Shown here: positions 27,294 through 31,728 of the stretch, in pieces
How the letters are laid out: every line of letters starts with the position of its first letter
How positions within the stretch are numbered: position 1 is the first letter of the stretch
NCBI GenBank assembly: GCA_012840355.1
Contig: DULN01000009.1
Coordinates: 134,414 to 198,413, forward strand
Reading direction: 5' to 3'
DNA: 64,000 nucleotides
DNA from: Clostridiales bacterium
GTDB taxonomy: Bacteria; Bacillota; Clostridia; Oscillospirales; CAG-272
Translations under genes and position numbers: made by a program
The notes under the pieces: model-generated
The model's database searches: none
The model's input: only the letters and a program-made list of their open reading frames with translations
Told to the model about the DNA's origin: nothing

Positions 27294-28661
27294 TCACTTA
27301 ATACCGTATTTTTCGGCAAGATAATTTACTATCTCTGTAACCTCTGTCCCGTTTGCATTTGCGGTTATTATGAGCTCGGCGATATTCACATCGGTACCGC
27401 CGACCTCAAATGACCCGGCGCCCGAAACTTGTATGCTGCCGTAATATATTTTCCACTCATGCTCGTCGTCAGGGTTTGTCTGCCCTGTCAATATTCCGGT
27501 TGTGGTGCTACCGCTTACCCATTTCAGGAATGCGTCGCCGCTGCCCGCATTCGCGACCGCAAACGCGTGGATCACTGTGCCGGTCCTGAAACTGTTTGAA
27601 CTTGTAATTGTTATCCGTGATAATGAATCTGCAGAATAGGAGAAATACCTGCTCGGGTATGTACCCGCGGACGGGGAGCTTTGGGTGCCGTCGGAGGCTT
27701 TGTCAAGGTACACCGTGCCTGTATGCCGAAGCATGAGCTTTGTGCTATTATTATACTCAATTTCGCTTGGCAGGTCGTTTACAGTTACAATTCCGTCCGA
27801 TTCCGATATATAGTTTTTGTCATTTGCAGACAGCACCGACGCGTCGTATACCGCCACATATTTGCCGATGTTCGGCAGCGCGCTTACATATATATAGTTC
27901 GTTGCGAAAGATTGCCCCATATAGCCTTCGATTGTGCCGGGAATCACCAAGCTCGCAATAAGCCTGCCTTTGTACTTCGATAAGTCGTTGAAGGTGACAT
28001 AATCCTCGCTTTCATCGCCTAATAGCGTGAAGTCCTGGGGGCAAATGGGAACTATATCGCTAAACTCGCCCATACTTTCGCCAGGGAGCGGCAACACATG
28101 GTTGTTTGCGCCGCCGACATACCACCAGTAGATATACTTCTTAAGGTTCGTATAAGACCCGTCGAGCTGGATATCCTGCACTTTGACCCCATCTTTTGAC
28201 TCGGGGAAATATATAACGTCTACCGAACTGTCTTTTAGCGATACCAGCTTGGCACTTTTTATCTGCGGTATCTTCGGTTCCGATTTATATGTATAAGCCA
28301 GCCCGCCGCTCAGCTTTATTGAGCCTACGTCTTGGCCTGACCTCACCATGGCTGAACCTGATACGGGGTAGACGGTAACTCTAAATTCGAATACATCTAC
28401 AGTTGTGGAGGGGAGATCTTCAAGCTCTTCAGTGATGTTGGCATCGATTATCCGCCTTACCCGCGCATACTCGTTTTCGATTGCTTTTTGCGCGTCGTTT
28501 AGCGCAATTGTCATATCGTTCGATAAAGTTCTGATTTGATGCCAATACTGCATGAATACGGCAACTGCTGTGGCAAGTAGCGCAATAAGCGTTATTGAAA
28601 CTATCACTTCCACAAGCGAATAGCCGTTTCTTTTTGCAATCTTATTTTTGGCGCTTTTCAT
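27294..28661 (-). CDS. Large type IV pilin-like protein with a lectin/LamG-like C-terminal region
   Basis: Prepilin-type N-terminus MKSAKNKIAKRNG/YSLVEVIVSITLIALLATAVAVF with Glu at +5. The C-terminal approximately 130 aa end in a ...DVNIAELIITANANGTEVTEIVNYLAEKYGIK pattern reminiscent of LamG/ConA-like domains. The ATG at 28661 is preferred over the TTG at 28682. Confidence 0.75.
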   Translation of the reverse strand: MKSAKNKIAKRNGYSLVEVIVSITLIALLATAVAVFMQYWHQIRTLSNDMTIALNDAQKAIENEYARVRRIIDANITEELEDLPSTTVDVFEFRVTVYPVSGSAMVRSGQDVGSIKLSGGLAYTYKSEPKIPQIKSAKLVSLKDSSVDVIYFPESKDGVKVQDIQLDGSYTNLKKYIYWWYVGGANNHVLPLPGESMGEFSDIVPICPQDFTLLGDESEDYVTFNDLSKYKGRLIASLVIPGTIEGYMGQSFATNYIYVSALPNIGKYVAVYDASVLSANDKNYISESDGIVTVNDLPSEIEYNNSTKLMLRHTGTVYLDKASDGTQSSPSAGTYPSRYFSYSADSLSRITITSSNSFRTGTVIHAFAVANAGSGDAFLKWVSGSTTTGILTGQTNPDDEHEWKIYYGSIQVSGAGSFEVGGTDVNIAELIITANANGTEVTEIVNYLAEKYGIK

Positions 28662-28662
28662 T

Positions 28663-30687
28663 TTATACTCTCGGGCTTTCAAGCAGCCATGCCGCGGTAT
28701 TGATATTGGAGATTATCCTACCTATAGCCTCGCTGAACTCGCTCGTGTTGTCAACGGTAAACGAGTAATACTCCGTCCTGCTCTGACCAACATTCAGCGC
28801 GTCTTGAATCATTTTAGACTCGTCTTGTTCCACGCTTCGCGCGTTTACATAAATATCGTAGAACGCCGAAATCGCATATTTCGGGTCCTGCTGGCTGAGC
28901 TCATAAATCTTTCCAAGGCAAAAAGCTGCGTAGTCTTTGGCAATTGTATAATTATCCATGCCGGGCTCATATTTCTGCGAAGCCGAAAGATGCGATCCCC
29001 TGAGCTGGGAGGTCGTCGGCACTGTGTATGAAAAGCTCTCCTTATTTTGGAGATAGAACGTCAGCTTTGTAGAATTGCTCGACAAGCTTACGGAGTGCCT
29101 TGACCTAAGGCTATTGTAGTCGGACCTCAAATTGAAGTTCCAGCTATTATAGCTTTGCGCGCTAGGTGTTTTGTAAAATACGTAGTGCGTACTGCCGTCA
29201 AGGTATAGGATGACATTGGGAGATTTGCTTGTGTCGAAATAGTAGTTGTCGACACCTCCAATCTCATCCGCGGTTATATATTTATACTTATAGGATTCGC
29301 TAAGCTTGTAATTTGATCTTTTTAAGTTATAGTCGTCAATTTTCCCCGCGATTATGGAGGGGTCTTTTACAGACCAAGCGTTTGTAAACCCGTCTGAGAT
29401 TTTTAAAATAACATTTGCCGCTCCCGGGTTCTTTTCCACGATTTTCTGAAGCTGCGAGTATGCGATTCTAAAGCCGTCGCCCAAATTCGTGCCGCCGGAC
29501 GGCGTGCGCCTTGCCAGATTGCCGGAGTAGTTTATTATGCTGCTATCCGAAATCTTTGCGGGGGCAACAGCGACCTTGCCGTATGTTTCAAATTCTACAA
29601 AACCGACATAGACGGTGTCGGTATATTGCTTAAAAGCATTTATAAACGCCCCGACATTATCGGCGAGAGCCTCTATCCGCCTCGGTTGCCGAGAAAAGCC
29701 TCCGCCCGCAGTGGGTATCCTCTCGTCCATGCTTCCCGAAAGGTCAAGCACGAAAATAACGTTGAGGTGCGGGACCGCATCAACTTTAAAACCGCCCTCG
29801 TGAAACGCGATCGCGGTCGCCGGATCCCTGCCCGAGCCGAGATGTACGGCCTGCAAAATGTTTACGCCGTTGAGCATCGTTTCAAGCTCGATGCTCCTGC
29901 CTTTGCCGATAACTTTACCATTATCGTCAAGATAAGTCACATTGATTATATACTCAAGCGAGCCAGAAACAATGTTGCCGCTTTTCGACTCGTTGGTCGT
30001 GTCGAATACAAGCTCGTAATGGGTGCTGTAGCCGAGCCGATCGTCGCACAGCTCGTAATCTATTATCGTAACAAGGAAATACCCGTCGCTCACATTACCG
30101 GCATAAACGTACTGGTCATACGGTTCCTTACCGAAGTTCCCGGATACCGAGAGGGCCTCCTGGTTTATCATTTCGGCTACATTATATGTTTGCTTCATCA
30201 CGTCAAGGCTTGTATAGTCATCGTCGCCATAAGTCTGGGAACCGATGTATTTGATATAGACCAGCGCTCTGAGGAACAACCCGATTTCATCTTTTTCCTC
30301 TTCGTCTATGTCGCCAAAGTACTTTGCAACCGTCTCGGGGCTGTTTTTTTGCTCAATTAGCCTATAGGGGATAAAGACATTGTCCATTACCCCTAGATAG
30401 CTCCAACCCTCAGTCAAATTTTTATAATTAAAGCTTTTTTGCGGGATAGTAAAGAGCGCGTTTGTAAACTTTATCGCATTGTTGATTCTTTCTGCAGTAT
30501 AGCGCGTCTGAGTTTCTTGGTTTACGAAATAGTCGGAAATCGAAGATATCGAGCCGGAGGAAAGAAACAGGCGGGCGCTAACGGCAAGTATTACTACAGA
30601 AAAAAATAGCACTATCAAAAGCTCAACTAGCGTAAACCCGCCTCGCCGTGCAAAACTCATGCCGGCATCTTTTTTTAGCTTTTTCAT
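28663..30687 (-). CDS. Giant type IV pilin-like protein carrying a von Willebrand factor A (MIDAS) module
   Basis: N-terminus MKKLKKDAGMSFARRGG/FTLVELLIVLFFSVVILAV. MIDAS motif DLSGS encoded at 29731-29745 (VIFVLDLSGSMDE). Downstream are GGTNLGDGF, ILKISDGFTN and a C-terminal vWA-like ending SEFSEAIGRIISNI. The ATG at 30687 is preferred over the GTG at 30708. Confidence 0.8.
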   Translation of the reverse strand: MKKLKKDAGMSFARRGGFTLVELLIVLFFSVVILAVSARLFLSSGSISSISDYFVNQETQTRYTAERINNAIKFTNALFTIPQKSFNYKNLTEGWSYLGVMDNVFIPYRLIEQKNSPETVAKYFGDIDEEEKDEIGLFLRALVYIKYIGSQTYGDDDYTSLDVMKQTYNVAEMINQEALSVSGNFGKEPYDQYVYAGNVSDGYFLVTIIDYELCDDRLGYSTHYELVFDTTNESKSGNIVSGSLEYIINVTYLDDNGKVIGKGRSIELETMLNGVNILQAVHLGSGRDPATAIAFHEGGFKVDAVPHLNVIFVLDLSGSMDERIPTAGGGFSRQPRRIEALADNVGAFINAFKQYTDTVYVGFVEFETYGKVAVAPAKISDSSIINYSGNLARRTPSGGTNLGDGFRIAYSQLQKIVEKNPGAANVILKISDGFTNAWSVKDPSIIAGKIDDYNLKRSNYKLSESYKYKYITADEIGGVDNYYFDTSKSPNVILYLDGSTHYVFYKTPSAQSYNSWNFNLRSDYNSLRSRHSVSLSSNSTKLTFYLQNKESFSYTVPTTSQLRGSHLSASQKYEPGMDNYTIAKDYAAFCLGKIYELSQQDPKYAISAFYDIYVNARSVEQDESKMIQDALNVGQSRTEYYSFTVDNTSEFSEAIGRIISNINTAAWLLESPRV

Positions 30688-31274: not shown

Positions 31275-31308
31275 CGCCCTCAGTTAAATAAAGGACGTAA
31301 AAGCGCCT

Positions 31309-31728
31309 TCAGCTGCTTCTTTTATACCTTTTAACTTGCGATTTATAAGTCGAAACAAGCTCAAGCCCATCATTTGTCAACTCAAGCTCATATGATGCGC
31401 CCTTTGGCTGGTCCTTAAAAAACGATATTTTATTACCTTCAACATCGTACTCGTCTTCTTCCGCCAATATGTAATCGCCCCTGACAAGGTCTTCAAGATC
31501 GGTTGGATACGCGCCGTTATGGGCCGACATGTACATATTGATGCCGGAAACGATAATGTTGTGGTTGGTCTCGAACAATTTTCTATTTGAGCTTTCGGTC
31601 ACCCCGTAATATGTAGGCACCGCTATCGCCGTTAAAATCCCGAGGACGGCTATCACCACAAGGAGCTCGGTAAGCGTAAAGCCACATTTTGCGGCCCAGC
31701 GTTTTTTTATAATTCTATTTACATCCAT
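31309..31728 (-). CDS. Type IV pilin / pseudopilin (major-subunit-sized)
   Basis: 139 aa. Class III signal peptide MDVNRIIKKRWAAKCG/FTLTELLVVIAVLGILTAIAVPTYYG. Confidence 0.85.
   Translation of the reverse strand: MDVNRIIKKRWAAKCGFTLTELLVVIAVLGILTAIAVPTYYGVTESSNRKLFETNHNIIVSGINMYMSAHNGAYPTDLEDLVRGDYILAEEDEYDVEGNKISFFKDQPKGASYELELTNDGLELVSTYKSQVKRYKRSS

What the first reader, a model, noticed from the sequence alone, without database searches (positions are those of the whole stretch)
27294..31728. Orphan four-gene type IV pilin-like operon with two giant modular pilins and no assembly machinery in 64 kb
Four consecutive minus-strand genes each open with a class III (prepilin) signal.
- 139 aa: ...AKCG/FTLTELLVVIAVLGIL
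- 185 aa: ...KSKNG/TILVYVLFLF, with no Glu5
- about 674 aa: ...ARRGG/FTLVELLIVLFF
- about 455 aa: ...KRNG/YSLVEVIVSITL

The genes are tightly packed, with 1-35 nt gaps. A near-consensus TTGACA/TGtTATAAT promoter sits at 31777-31806 and a hairpin follows the last gene.

The window contains no PilB/ComGA ATPase, PilC/ComGB platform, PilD/ComC prepilin peptidase or PilMNO. In the Firmicutes T4P and Com loci I know, the pilins sit next to that machinery.

The subunit set is one major-sized pilin, one Glu5-less ComGG/PilX-like protein and two adhesin-sized modular pilins. That looks like a self-contained tip or adhesin cassette that must use machinery encoded elsewhere.

The only described parallel I know is the pair of modular minor pilins in Streptococcus sanguinis (PilB with a vWA module, PilC with a lectin-type module). 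A detached cassette like this in a Clostridia-like genome may be undescribed.
Basis: partly seen in the sequence, partly recalled or inferred. Interest (0 to 1): 0.78.

Follow-up and report, generated by a model that had tools for sequence, protein, structure and literature searches.

The report
Detached type IV pilus subunit operon
This is a four-gene operon for the building blocks of a type IV pilus (one shaft pilin and three tip pilins, two of which carry adhesin domains), clearly related to the well-studied Streptococcus sanguinis pilus subunits, and unusual only because it sits apart from the genes of the assembly machine.

Summary
Four tightly packed minus-strand genes (31728-27294) sit behind a perfect sigma-70 promoter and ahead of a terminator hairpin. 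Each starts with a prepilin-type signal; the second lacks Glu5. The 64-kb window has no PilB/T, PilC, PilM/N/O or prepilin peptidase.

The cassette is not a new kind of system. It corresponds to the S. sanguinis pilin set:
- The vWA-pilin family profile hits S. sanguinis PilB first (7B7P, E 2.8e-29), beyond the vWA core.
- The AlphaFold model hits PilB first (E 6e-19, TM 0.62).
- The 139-aa pilin matches major pilin PilE1 (E 1.8e-6).
- The Glu5-less 182-aa protein resembles PilA in features, with only weak sequence support.
- The 455-aa pilin probably ends in a lectin-like jelly roll, as PilC does (low confidence).

The same four-gene module, in the same order, lies inside ordinary pilT-pilC...pilMNO-pilB clusters in 13 loci (about 11 relatives). 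It is detached in the window's own clade (four species, same housekeeping synteny) and in two other MAGs.

Best reading: a complete pilin set (shaft plus priming/adhesive tip complex) served by machinery encoded elsewhere. I could not check whether that machinery exists. Verdict: new member of a known kind, modest interest.

The parts
31777..31806 (-). Sigma-70-type promoter: TTGACA (31806-31801), 18-nt spacer, extended -10 TGtTATAAT (31785-31777).
   Evidence: 12 of 12 consensus matches, TG present; sequence read.
31309..31728 (-). Gene 1: a 139-aa canonical prepilin (16-aa leader, G-1|F+1, Glu5). Candidate major (shaft) pilin, PilE-like.
   Evidence: N_methyl 1.4e-7 and TIGR02532 2.7e-8. Its second-best PDB match is S. 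sanguinis PilE1 (8PFB, E 1.8e-6, aligned over residues 17-90). G16, F17 and E21 are invariant in 14 orthologues. It is the only major-pilin-type gene in the relatives' full clusters.
30717..31274 (-). Gene 2: a 182-aa protein (TTG start at 31265) or 185-aa protein (GTG start at 31274) with a degenerate class III signal. It has a basic leader, Gly-1, a hydrophobic helix and no Glu5. PilA/PilX/ComGG-type; predicted to be the capping or priming subunit.
   Evidence: In the 16-member family, Gly-1 is nearly invariant, no member has Glu at +5, and an AYYL motif is conserved. One member matches PilX_N at 8.5e-6. The match to S. sanguinis PilA (7O5Y) is weak: E 0.91 over 110 residues and hhalign P 0.03.
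28663..30708 (-). Gene 3: a 674-aa modular pilin (ATG at 30687; 681 aa if it starts at the GTG at 30708). It has a class III signal with Glu5, a pilin module and a vWA module. Homologue of S. sanguinis PilB.
   Evidence: VWA_2 2.9e-8. The family profile hits 7B7P PilB at E 2.8e-29 in three stretches. AF2 model has mean pLDDT 75, with helix 20-73 followed by a beta sheet. Foldseek's top hits are 7BA2/7B7P (E 6e-19, TM 0.62); the next hit is at 2e-9.
28693..29766 (-). vWA module (about residues 308-665) with a complete MIDAS: D315-x-S317-x-S319 (29745-29731), T400 (29490-29488) and D432 (29394-29392). It contains an inserted beta subdomain at about residues 480-560.
   Evidence: The MIDAS residues are invariant in 18 family members. 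pLDDT is 80-93 across the module.
27294..28661 (-). Gene 4: a 455-aa modular pilin (13-aa leader, G-1|Y+1, Glu5). It occupies the position of PilC.
   Evidence: N_methyl 1.5e-5, and N_methyl in all 16 family members. The AF2 model has helix 16-73 and a sheet at 86-123, but mean pLDDT is only 54.
27297..27878 (-). C-terminal all-beta domain of gene 4 (about residues 262-455). Probably a lectin/CBM-type jelly roll (LamG / concanavalin-A-like).
   Evidence: The homologous region of family member L024 passes Pfam Laminin_G_3 (30.7 bits against a 27.6 cut-off). Conserved end motif VDIAELIxVxNP...YLxxKYGI. Foldseek hits to CBM35/CBM6/CBM4 at E about 1e-3, TM about 0.5. Confidence is low.
27243..27284 (-). 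Intrinsic-terminator-like hairpin (27284-27252) with a U-rich tail, 10 nt after the stop codon of gene 4.
   Evidence: -21 kcal/mol, z -2.33; sequence read.
31854..33044 (-). Upstream neighbour, not shown to be part of the system: a transglutaminase-core lipoprotein with its own 12/12 promoter (33144-33116). It lies next to the cassette in every detached-clade species.
   Evidence: Transglut_core 7.4e-6. 48-70% identical orthologues lie directly upstream of the cassette in L008, L011 and L012 and are absent from the attached loci. Promoter.

Best explanation
The operon encodes the full set of structural subunits of a Gram-positive-type (S. sanguinis/Clostridia-type) type IVa pilus.

Proposed mechanism (inferred by homology unless marked otherwise):
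1. All four proteins are inserted into the membrane and cleaved after the conserved Gly by a prepilin peptidase encoded elsewhere in the genome.
2. The Glu5-less 182-aa protein, the 455-aa pilin and the 674-aa vWA pilin form a three-subunit complex that primes assembly and ends up at the pilus tip. The Glu5-less subunit is on top, and the two bulky modules stick out sideways, as modelled for S. sanguinis PilA-PilC-PilB.
3. The 139-aa pilin is then polymerised beneath this complex by a PilB ATPase, PilC platform and PilMNO machine. A PilT ATPase probably retracts the filament.
4. The tip displays two adhesive modules. One is a metal-dependent (MIDAS) vWA domain, which most likely binds a protein ligand. 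The other is a probable lectin/CBM-type jelly roll, which most likely binds a glycan. Polysaccharide or cell-surface ligands are plausible in an anaerobic digester.

In this lineage the pilin operon has been separated from the machinery genes. It runs from its own strong housekeeping-type promoter.

Shown here: the gene anatomy, the homologies, the conserved MIDAS, the pilin-like N-terminal folds, and the link between the module and T4aP machinery in relatives.
Inferred: processing, tip location, ligands, and the existence of the machinery elsewhere in this genome.
For: - **Anatomy and signals:**
- **PilB homology:** the family profile hits 7B7P at E 2.8e-29. The match includes the pilin-module motif LTxxWSYxG and the C-terminal W..GP end, not only the vWA core. 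Foldseek rank 1-3 are PilB at E 6e-19 to 4e-18 and TM 0.60-0.62, nine orders of magnitude ahead of the next hit.
- **MIDAS:** invariant in 18 homologues.
- **PilE1 match** for the small pilin.
- **Glu5-less family:** conserved Gly-1 and one PilX_N hit.
- **Third pilin:** a LamG hit in the homologous domain of one family member and CBM-type fold hits.
- **Context in relatives:** all four proteins have homologues in the same order in about 20 loci. In 13 of these loci (about 11 relatives) they are embedded in pilT-pilC-module-pilM...pilB or pilMNO-pilB-module clusters.
- **Selection:** the ORFs are intact and 99.5-100% identical across six independent metagenome assemblies. They are conserved at one syntenic site in four species, while evolving faster (39-61% identity) than the neighbouring EF-G and PyrF (74-86%). 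S. sanguinis pilins show the same pattern relative to their machinery (PMC4832360).
- **Mechanism by analogy:** PilABC is a tip complex required for piliation, PilB's vWA module binds host proteins, and PilC's lectin module binds glycans (PMC8179133, PMC9934059).
Against: - No assembly gene was found in the 64 kb, and I could not search the rest of the genome. A cognate machine is therefore assumed, not shown.
- The link between the 182-aa protein and PilA is weak (E 0.91; hhalign P 0.03, probability 1.6%).
- The 455-aa protein has no detectable sequence similarity to S. sanguinis PilC, and its model is poor (mean pLDDT 54). "PilC-like lectin module" is therefore a resemblance in architecture only.
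- The 139-aa pilin also resembles pseudopilins (GspG 5WDA at E 4.5e-6; TIGR01710 at 2.1e-9 but far below its cut-off). The same was noted for S. sanguinis PilE1 (PMC6497953). A short secretion-type pseudopilus is not excluded.
- No expression data exist.
Confidence: 0.8

Rival explanations
1. It is a secretion-type pseudopilus rather than a long adhesive pilus. The four subunits would build a short T2SS-like piston, as proposed for part of the Clostridium perfringens T4P gene set, which pushes folded proteins through the wall.
For: - The small pilin's closest matches include GspG (TIGR01710 at 2.1e-9; 5WDA at E 4.5e-6).
- One relative's cluster carries a Secretin_N protein and a faint T2SSC hit.
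- T4P-dependent secretion of a vWA protein is reported in C. perfringens (PMC11580942).
Against: - The GspG score (37.5 bits) is far below the family cut-off (88.85).
- The relatives' clusters contain one or two PilT retraction ATPases and PilMNO, which is typical of T4aP.
- Two subunits carry large surface-binding modules homologous or analogous to the adhesins at the S. sanguinis pilus tip.
- S. sanguinis PilE1 is also pseudopilin-like yet forms true pili (PMC6497953).
Confidence: 0.08
2. It is a stranded relic. The lineage lost its pilus machinery, and the cassette is a non-functional or decaying leftover.
For: No machinery lies within 27-32 kb on either side in the window, nor within up to 10 kb of fetched flank in three related species. 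The rest of the genome could not be examined.
Against: - All four ORFs are intact.
- The promoter is a perfect consensus.
- The MIDAS, Gly-1 and Glu5 residues are conserved.
- The cassette is kept at the same syntenic site in four species that differ by 14-26% in EF-G.
- It is 99.5-100% identical in six independent assemblies.
Confidence: 0.07
3. It is a competence (Com) pseudopilus operon, comGC-comGG-like, used for DNA uptake.
For: There are weak NCBIfam hits to ComGC, ComGD, ComGE and ComGF. A Glu5-less subunit also occurs in Com pili (ComGG).
Against: - All Com hits are far below their cut-offs (for example ComGC 30.8 against 75 bits).
- They cover only the shared N-terminal helix.
- No ComGA or ComGB is adjacent.
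- Com minor pilins are small, whereas two subunits here are 455 and 674 aa with vWA and jelly-roll modules.
- Relatives sit in PilT/PilMNO clusters.
Confidence: 0.02

Closest known systems
Streptococcus sanguinis type IV pilus subunits: major pilins PilE1/PilE2 and the minor-pilin tip complex PilA-PilB-PilC (PMC4832360, PMC6497953, PMC8179133, PMC9934059; PDB 8PFB, 7O5Y, 7B7P)
   Same: - The composition and order match: a pseudopilin-like major pilin; a ~17-20 kDa pilin with a degenerate signal and no Glu5; a vWA-modular pilin with a functional-type MIDAS; and a ~50 kDa modular pilin with a beta-sandwich or lectin-type module.
- The vWA pilin is homologous over the pilin module, the vWA module and the C-terminal end.
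- The small pilin matches PilE1.
- The pilins evolve faster than their neighbours.
- The relatives' clusters contain the same set as S. sanguinis, except that no PilD was recognised in those checked: PilT, platform, ATPase, PilMNO, one major pilin and three minor pilins.
   Different: - The operon is separated from all assembly genes, whereas the S. sanguinis locus is one 22-kb block.
- There is one major pilin gene, not two.
- The vWA pilin is about 200 residues larger, with extra segments before the vWA and a beta insertion inside it.
- The third pilin shows no detectable sequence similarity to PilC.
- Similarity of the Glu5-less protein to PilA is only marginal.
- The host is an uncultured anaerobic-digester Clostridia organism, not a human commensal.
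Pseudomonas/Myxococcus fimU-pilVWXY1E-type minor-pilin operons with the vWA-bearing tip adhesin PilY1 (PMC7541494, PMC8806160)
   Same: - It is a separate operon, away from pilBCD, that encodes a priming tip complex.
- One subunit lacks Glu5.
- A vWA domain is displayed at the tip.
   Different: - There are four small core minor pilins plus a non-pilin PilY1 with a beta-propeller. Here there are three subunits, and the vWA is fused directly to a pilin.
- No sequence relationship was detected here.
Clostridium difficile / C. perfringens T4P clusters (pilA1-pilB-pilC-pilMNO with minor pilins such as PilK, PilU and PilV)
   Same: - The class of bacteria and the machinery type are the same.
- The Peptostreptococcaceae locus L026 carries the module between pilC and pilM.
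   Different: - I did not compare sequences with the named C. difficile or C. perfringens minor pilins.
- No c-di-GMP riboswitch of the kind that controls C. difficile pilA1 is present here.
Com pseudopilus (ComGC-ComGG) and T2SS pseudopilins (GspG-K)
   Same: They share the class III signal peptides, a Glu5-less subunit and a small operon of pilin-like genes.
   Different: All family scores are far below their cut-offs. There is no ComGA/GB or Gsp machinery, and the subunits here are large and modular.

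Membership tests
Type IV pilins (class III signal peptide proteins) | Short basic leader ending in Gly-1, followed by about 21 hydrophobic residues with Glu at +5 (N_methyl / TIGR02532). | tested here: met
   Three of the four proteins meet it. N_methyl scores 31.2 and 24.8 bits (cut-off 21.2) for the 139-aa and 455-aa proteins. The 674-aa protein scores 17.9 bits, but the motif is visible and many of its homologues pass. The 182-aa protein has the leader, Gly-1 and hydrophobic helix but no Glu5, which is a known degenerate type.
Type IV pilins (class III signal peptide proteins) | Long N-terminal alpha1 helix packed on an antiparallel beta sheet. | tested here: met
   In the 674-aa model, helix 20-73 is followed by strands 78-150, although part of alpha1 has low pLDDT. 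The whole PilB chain, pilin module included, aligns by Foldseek. In the 455-aa model, helix 16-73 is followed by strands 86-123, at low confidence. The 139-aa and 182-aa proteins were not modelled.
Type IV pilins (class III signal peptide proteins) | Cleavage and N-methylation by a prepilin peptidase, and incorporation into a filament. | not testable with these tools
   This needs biochemistry.
S. sanguinis PilB-type vWA modular pilin | N-terminal pilin module fused to a vWA module, with similarity extending outside the generic vWA core. | tested here: met
   The profile hits 7B7P at E 2.8e-29 in three stretches: pilin-module motif, linker plus vWA, and C-terminal W..GP. Foldseek hits 7BA2/7B7P at E about 1e-18 and TM 0.60-0.62 over about 630 columns.
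S. sanguinis PilB-type vWA modular pilin | Complete MIDAS (DxSxS...T...D). | tested here: met
   D315, S317, S319, T400 and D432 are invariant in 18 family members.
S. sanguinis PilB-type vWA modular pilin | Metal-dependent adhesion to protein ligands. | not testable with these tools
   Functional assay required.
S. sanguinis PilA-type Glu5-less minor pilin (GspI-like) | Pilin-sized protein with a degenerate class III signal lacking Glu5, encoded directly upstream of the modular pilins. | tested here: met
   The feature is conserved in 16 family members, always directly upstream of the vWA pilin.
S. sanguinis PilA-type Glu5-less minor pilin (GspI-like) | Sequence or structural similarity to PilA / GspI. 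| tested here: inconclusive
   7O5Y PilA appears at E 0.91 over 110 residues. hhalign gives P 0.03 and probability 1.6% over 42 columns. One member matches PilX_N.
S. sanguinis PilC-type lectin modular pilin | Canonical class III signal with Glu5 on a protein of about 50 kDa. | tested here: met
S. sanguinis PilC-type lectin modular pilin | Concanavalin-A-like lectin module. | tested here: inconclusive
   One family member passes Laminin_G_3 in the homologous C-terminal domain. The window protein itself has no such hit. The low-confidence model matches CBM6/35-type jelly rolls at E about 1e-3.
S. sanguinis PilC-type lectin modular pilin | Sequence similarity to PilC. | tested here: not met
   No PDB sequence hit beyond the N-terminal helix, whether with the protein, the family profile or the C-terminal profile.
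Complete type IVa pilus locus | Extension ATPase, platform protein, PilMNO and prepilin peptidase encoded with the pilins. | tested here: not met
   None is present in the 64-kb window. ATPase, platform and PilMNO are present next to the module in 13 loci of relatives, though no prepilin peptidase was recognised in the clusters checked. Presence elsewhere in this genome is not testable here.
Com pseudopilus (ComGC-GG) | Equivalog-level match to ComG pilins and adjacency to ComGA/ComGB. | tested here: not met
   ComGC scores 30.8 against a cut-off of 75, ComGE 15.8-18.8 against 49, and ComGD 14.6 against 70. No T2SSE or T2SSF lies in the window.
T2SS pseudopilins (GspG-K) | Equivalog-level match to GspG/H/I/J/K. 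| tested here: not met
   GspG scores 37.5 against 88.85, GspH 22.6 against 80, and GspJ 11.7 against 64.85.

The most novel reading that the evidence does not exclude
Triplets led by a Glu5-less subunit (capping pilin plus two modular adhesin pilins) may be interchangeable tip-complex cassettes. They could move away from, duplicate beside, or accumulate apart from the pilus machine, so that one machine can display alternative adhesins. Three observations support this idea:
- the window's detached operon;
- the MAG locus L024, which holds four such triplets in a row with no major pilin or machinery within 13 kb;
- loci with two tandem vWA pilins (L018, L019).

A corollary is that uncultured Clostridia carrying this module are the kind of donor from which S. 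sanguinis obtained its pil locus. The 2019 review calls that donor unknown, and PilA was said to have no homologues outside the species.
Probability: 0.25. Interest if true: 0.5.

Novelty: new member of a known kind. Interest (0 to 1): 0.3.

Why it matters
- **A model system extends to uncultured organisms.** The best-understood Gram-positive pilus tip complex (S. sanguinis PilABC) has clear relatives in uncultured Clostridia from anaerobic digesters and guts. Its mechanism can therefore be carried over to organisms that cannot be grown.
- **Candidate attachment factors.** The operon offers a candidate protein-binding module and a candidate glycan-binding module for attachment to particles or partner cells in digesters.
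- **Annotation.** The 182-aa and 455-aa families currently have no functional domain assignment (the 455-aa family only the N_methyl motif). They can now be labelled by context as T4P minor pilins.
- **Limits.** The detached arrangement is a modest point of genome organisation, not a new mechanism.

Tried and rejected
- **Machinery elsewhere in the genome.** I used the single metagenome scan with a PilB alignment, hoping for loci from the JGI samples that hold this organism (Ga0134099, Ga0134093). None of the 80 carried the module either. The result is inconclusive.
- **Window species in the genome collection.** It was not found; the best vWA-pilin match was 57%.
- **Richer alignment for the 455-aa model.** The admissible 5-sequence alignment gave only pLDDT 54.
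- **Sequence link between the 455-aa pilin and S. sanguinis PilC or any lectin structure.** None was found with the protein, the full profile or the C-terminal profile.
- **Riboswitch or other RNA regulator.** Only two tRNAs in the window pass Rfam thresholds.
- **Invertible promoter or repeats.** Only short, chance-level repeats were found.
- **Recent horizontal island.** Cassette GC3 is low (0.50-0.56 against 0.63 +/- 0.06), but the cassette sits at the same syntenic site in four species. Recent acquisition is therefore unlikely.
- **The upstream transglutaminase-like lipoprotein as a system component.** It co-occurs only in the detached clade, where it may simply be inherited synteny, and it has its own promoter. 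I did not include it.
- **Prepilin peptidase inside relatives' full clusters.** The ORFs I scanned (L017, L026) contained none, so even attached clusters may keep pilD elsewhere.

Full report
**1. The observation**

The region holds four consecutive minus-strand ORFs:
- 31728-31309 (139 aa);
- 31274 or 31265-30717 (185 or 182 aa);
- 30708 or 30687-28663 (681 or 674 aa);
- 28661-27294 (455 aa).

Three have Gly-1 followed by F/Y-x-L-x-E. The second has Gly-1 followed by TILVY, with no Glu5.

The gaps between genes are 34, 8-29 and 1 nt. Gene callers on six independent metagenome assemblies called the same four genes.

The promoter at 31806-31777 is a 12/12 consensus match with an extended -10 TG. 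A hairpin lies 10 nt after the last stop codon (-21 kcal/mol, z -2.3) and is followed by a U-rich tract.

- N_methyl/TIGR02532 on three N-termini, with the 674-aa protein just below the cut-off;
- VWA/VWA_2 at residues 316-467 of the 674-aa protein.

**2. No machinery in the window**

By composition the window is housekeeping: fab/acc, a Cu-ATPase, GH106, an EF-G paralogue, pyr genes, MoxR-DUF58-TgpA and rnf.

I took PilB, two PilT, PilC, PilM, PilN, PilO and a cluster-encoded sigma factor from a relative's complete cluster (L009). Used as tblastn probes, they matched nothing in the window at E<1e-4.

Of the eight ORFs with two or more predicted membrane segments and no other obvious assignment, seven match Rnf, MscL, DUF58 or TgpA families, none of them Peptidase_A24. 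The eighth (62030-62908) matches no family.

The "no machinery in 64 kb" statement therefore holds.

**3. What the proteins are**

*The vWA pilin.* An 18-member alignment shows an invariant MIDAS: D315, S317, S319, T400 and D432.
- As a profile against all PDB sequences, its best hit is the S. sanguinis minor pilin PilB (7B7P, E 2.8e-29).
- The match falls in three stretches: the pilin-module motif (LTxxWSYxG), the linker plus vWA domain, and the C-terminal W..GP end. It is therefore not just a generic vWA match.
- Among bacterial proteins the next hit is at E 2e-9; a mussel thread-matrix protein reaches 2e-22.
- The AlphaFold model (mean pLDDT 75) has an alpha1 helix at 20-73, a beta module, and a vWA domain with pLDDT 80-93 that carries an inserted beta subdomain.
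- Foldseek against the PDB puts S. sanguinis PilB at ranks 1-3 (E 6e-19 to 4e-18, TM 0.60-0.62 over the whole PilB chain). The next hits, at 2e-9 and weaker, are vWA tip adhesins of other pilus types: SpaC, Mfa5, PitA and GBS104.
- In a library of 1.84 billion representative proteins, the family profile finds 274 clusters at E<=1e-30. The family is sizeable, though almost entirely uncharacterised.

*The 139-aa pilin.* It is canonical: G16, F17 and E21 are invariant in 14 orthologues.
- Its second-best PDB match is the S. sanguinis major pilin PilE1 (8PFB, E 1.8e-6), aligned over residues 17-90, well beyond alpha1N.
- It also resembles GspG. The same pseudopilin-like character was noted for PilE1 (PMC6497953).

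*The 182-aa protein.* Its 16-member family always has a basic leader, a nearly invariant Gly-1 and a hydrophobic helix. No member has Glu5, and an AYYL helix motif is conserved.
- One member matches PilX_N at 8.5e-6.
- The family profile picks up S. sanguinis PilA (7O5Y) over 110 residues, but only at E 0.91.
- hhalign gives P 0.03 over 42 columns.
- I treat the PilA relationship as suggested, not shown. The feature set is the one described for PilA (17 kDa, degenerate signal, no Glu5; PMC9934059, PMC6497953).

*The 455-aa protein.* All 16 family members carry N_methyl.
- The family ends in a conserved block, VDIAELIxVxNP...YLxxKYGI.
- In one member (L024) the homologous C-terminal domain passes Pfam Laminin_G_3, the concanavalin-A-like superfamily (30.7 bits against a 27.6 cut-off).
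- The admissible alignment had only 5 sequences, and the model is poor (mean pLDDT 54; the C-terminal domain scores 60-84).
- The model shows helix 16-73 with a sheet behind it, then an all-beta C-terminal domain. Its Foldseek matches are all carbohydrate-binding jelly rolls (CBM35, CBM6, CBM4, CBM29) at E about 1e-3 and TM about 0.5.
- No sequence similarity to S. sanguinis PilC or to any lectin structure was found.
- "Lectin-type module like PilC" is therefore plausible but unproven.

**4. Context in relatives**

The organism is an uncultured Clostridia-type bacterium from biogas and anaerobic-digester metagenomes. Contigs reach 340 kb, all with the same synteny. Its species is not in the GTDB-based genome collection: the best vWA-pilin match there is 57%.

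All four proteins have homologues, in the same order, in about 20 loci from uncultured Clostridia/Bacillota MAGs.

*Attached.* In 13 loci the module sits inside ordinary T4aP clusters:
- (secretin)-pilT-pilC-sigma-pilM-pilN-pilO-pilB-pilin-182-vWA-476 in the JGI contig and in L007, L009 and L010;
- pilT-pilC-pilin-~160/185-vWA-~460-pilM...pilB in L014-L022;
- pilB-pilT-pilC-module-pilMNO in the Peptostreptococcaceae locus L026.

*Detached.* The module is separate from machinery in:
- the window's own clade: the window species, L011, L012 and L008/L013. All have the order pyrF, EF-G, transglutaminase-like lipoprotein, cassette;
- two unrelated MAGs, L024 and L025.

Eighty PilB loci picked at random from metagenomes do not carry the module. 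It is therefore specific to this type of cluster.

The relatives' clusters encode what S. sanguinis needs for piliation, except that no PilD was recognised in those checked: one major pilin, three minor pilins, PilD, platform, ATPase and PilMNO, plus PilT (PMC6916266). [quoted passage not shown]

**5. Evolutionary behaviour**

Cassette proteins are 39-61% identical between the detached-clade species. The adjacent EF-G and PyrF are 74-86% identical. S. sanguinis shows the same contrast between pilins and machinery (PMC4832360).

GC3 of the four genes (0.50-0.56) is the lowest in the window (mean 0.63, sd 0.06). Because the cassette has a fixed syntenic position in four species, recent horizontal arrival is unlikely.

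No riboswitch and no invertible-element signature is present.

**6. Mechanism**

By homology with S. sanguinis (PMC8179133, PMC9934059), the most likely mechanism is as follows.
1. A prepilin peptidase encoded elsewhere cleaves all four proteins after Gly-1.
2. The Glu5-less subunit, the 455-aa pilin and the vWA pilin form the priming complex, which stays at the tip.
3. The 139-aa pilin is polymerised beneath it by PilB, PilC and PilMNO. PilT retracts the filament.
4. The vWA MIDAS module and the probable lectin/CBM module mediate adhesion.

Only the anatomy, the homologies and the association with T4aP machinery in relatives are shown here. Processing, tip location, ligands and the presence of machinery in this genome are inferences.

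**7. Rivals**

- A secretion-type pseudopilus is possible but less likely. The relatives have PilT and PilMNO, the subunits carry adhesin-type modules, and GspG scores are far below the cut-off.
- A stranded relic is unlikely, given the intact ORFs, the consensus promoter and the conserved functional residues across species.
- A Com pseudopilus is excluded by the family cut-offs and the context.

**8. Verdict**

However, the cassette is a new member of a known kind: the S. sanguinis/Clostridia-type pilE-pilABC pilin set.

The detachment from the machinery is real. It is confined to one clade and two other MAGs. Pilin genes located away from assembly genes are well known in Gram-negatives (my own knowledge) and were reported as candidates in Gram-positives (PMC3244431).

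The one open and decisive point is whether this genome encodes a prepilin peptidase and a T4aP machine elsewhere. I could not test that with the tools available.

Noticed in passing
L024:1489-13008 (MAG Bacillota bacterium OH_CDB_59, JAEZLD010000057.1): A tandem array of four minor-pilin triplets. Each starts with a Glu5-less PilX-like protein (164, 332, 367 and 160 aa) followed by pilins with GFTLIE-type signals. The first and last triplets contain vWA pilins. There is no major pilin and no machinery within the 13 kb. It looks like a store of alternative tip complexes.
   Followed up: partly
L018:8025-11542 and L019:5914-9434; L018 and L020 come from the same MAG (JAZQNF01): Some gut Bianqueaceae modules carry two tandem vWA pilins (648/649 and 532 aa). 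One MAG has two separate complete pilT-pilC-module...pilB clusters.
   Followed up: no
JGI 3300075153 contig (no DNA held) and L007; L009:2235-2951: In the closest attached relatives, the T4P cluster includes a Secretin_N protein (501 aa), a faint T2SSC hit and a sigma-70-family factor between pilC and pilM. An SLH-domain protein lies nearby. This suggests a diderm or otherwise unusual envelope and dedicated transcriptional control. No homologue of that sigma factor is in the window.
   Followed up: no
window:31854-33144 (-): A transglutaminase-core lipoprotein (396 aa) with its own 12/12 promoter lies directly upstream of the cassette. It is conserved there (48-70% identity) in all detached-clade species and absent from attached loci. 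This could be mere synteny or a functional partner.
   Followed up: partly
window:40743-46303 (+): A MoxR-type AAA ATPase (AAA_3), a DUF58 protein and a 1069-aa TgpA-like membrane transglutaminase form a separate, typical three-gene operon about 9 kb from the cassette. This is a second transglutaminase-family gene in the window.
   Followed up: no
window:26517-27293, and L002-L006 at about 14500-15800: The stretch between the cassette and the GH106 gene varies between strains that are otherwise 99.5-100% identical in the cassette. The window and L001 have one 155-aa ORF here, which in the window has no family match and low GC (0.46). The other assemblies have ORFs of 174-192 aa plus an extra 173-aa gene.
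   Followed up: no
window:62030-62908 (-) and 48450-49538 (-): Two ORFs (292 aa with about 4 hydrophobic segments, and 362 aa) have no Pfam match. They may be spurious or unknown genes.
   Followed up: no
window:55986-56170 (+): Two adjacent tRNA genes are the only Rfam matches above threshold in the window.
   Followed up: no
L026:10881-14270 and 19053-20234: In the Peptostreptococcaceae cluster, the third module pilin is 1129 aa with a Big_2 domain. A further PilX_N + DUF7305 protein and a Wzy_C (O-antigen ligase-like) protein follow PilMNO.
   Followed up: no
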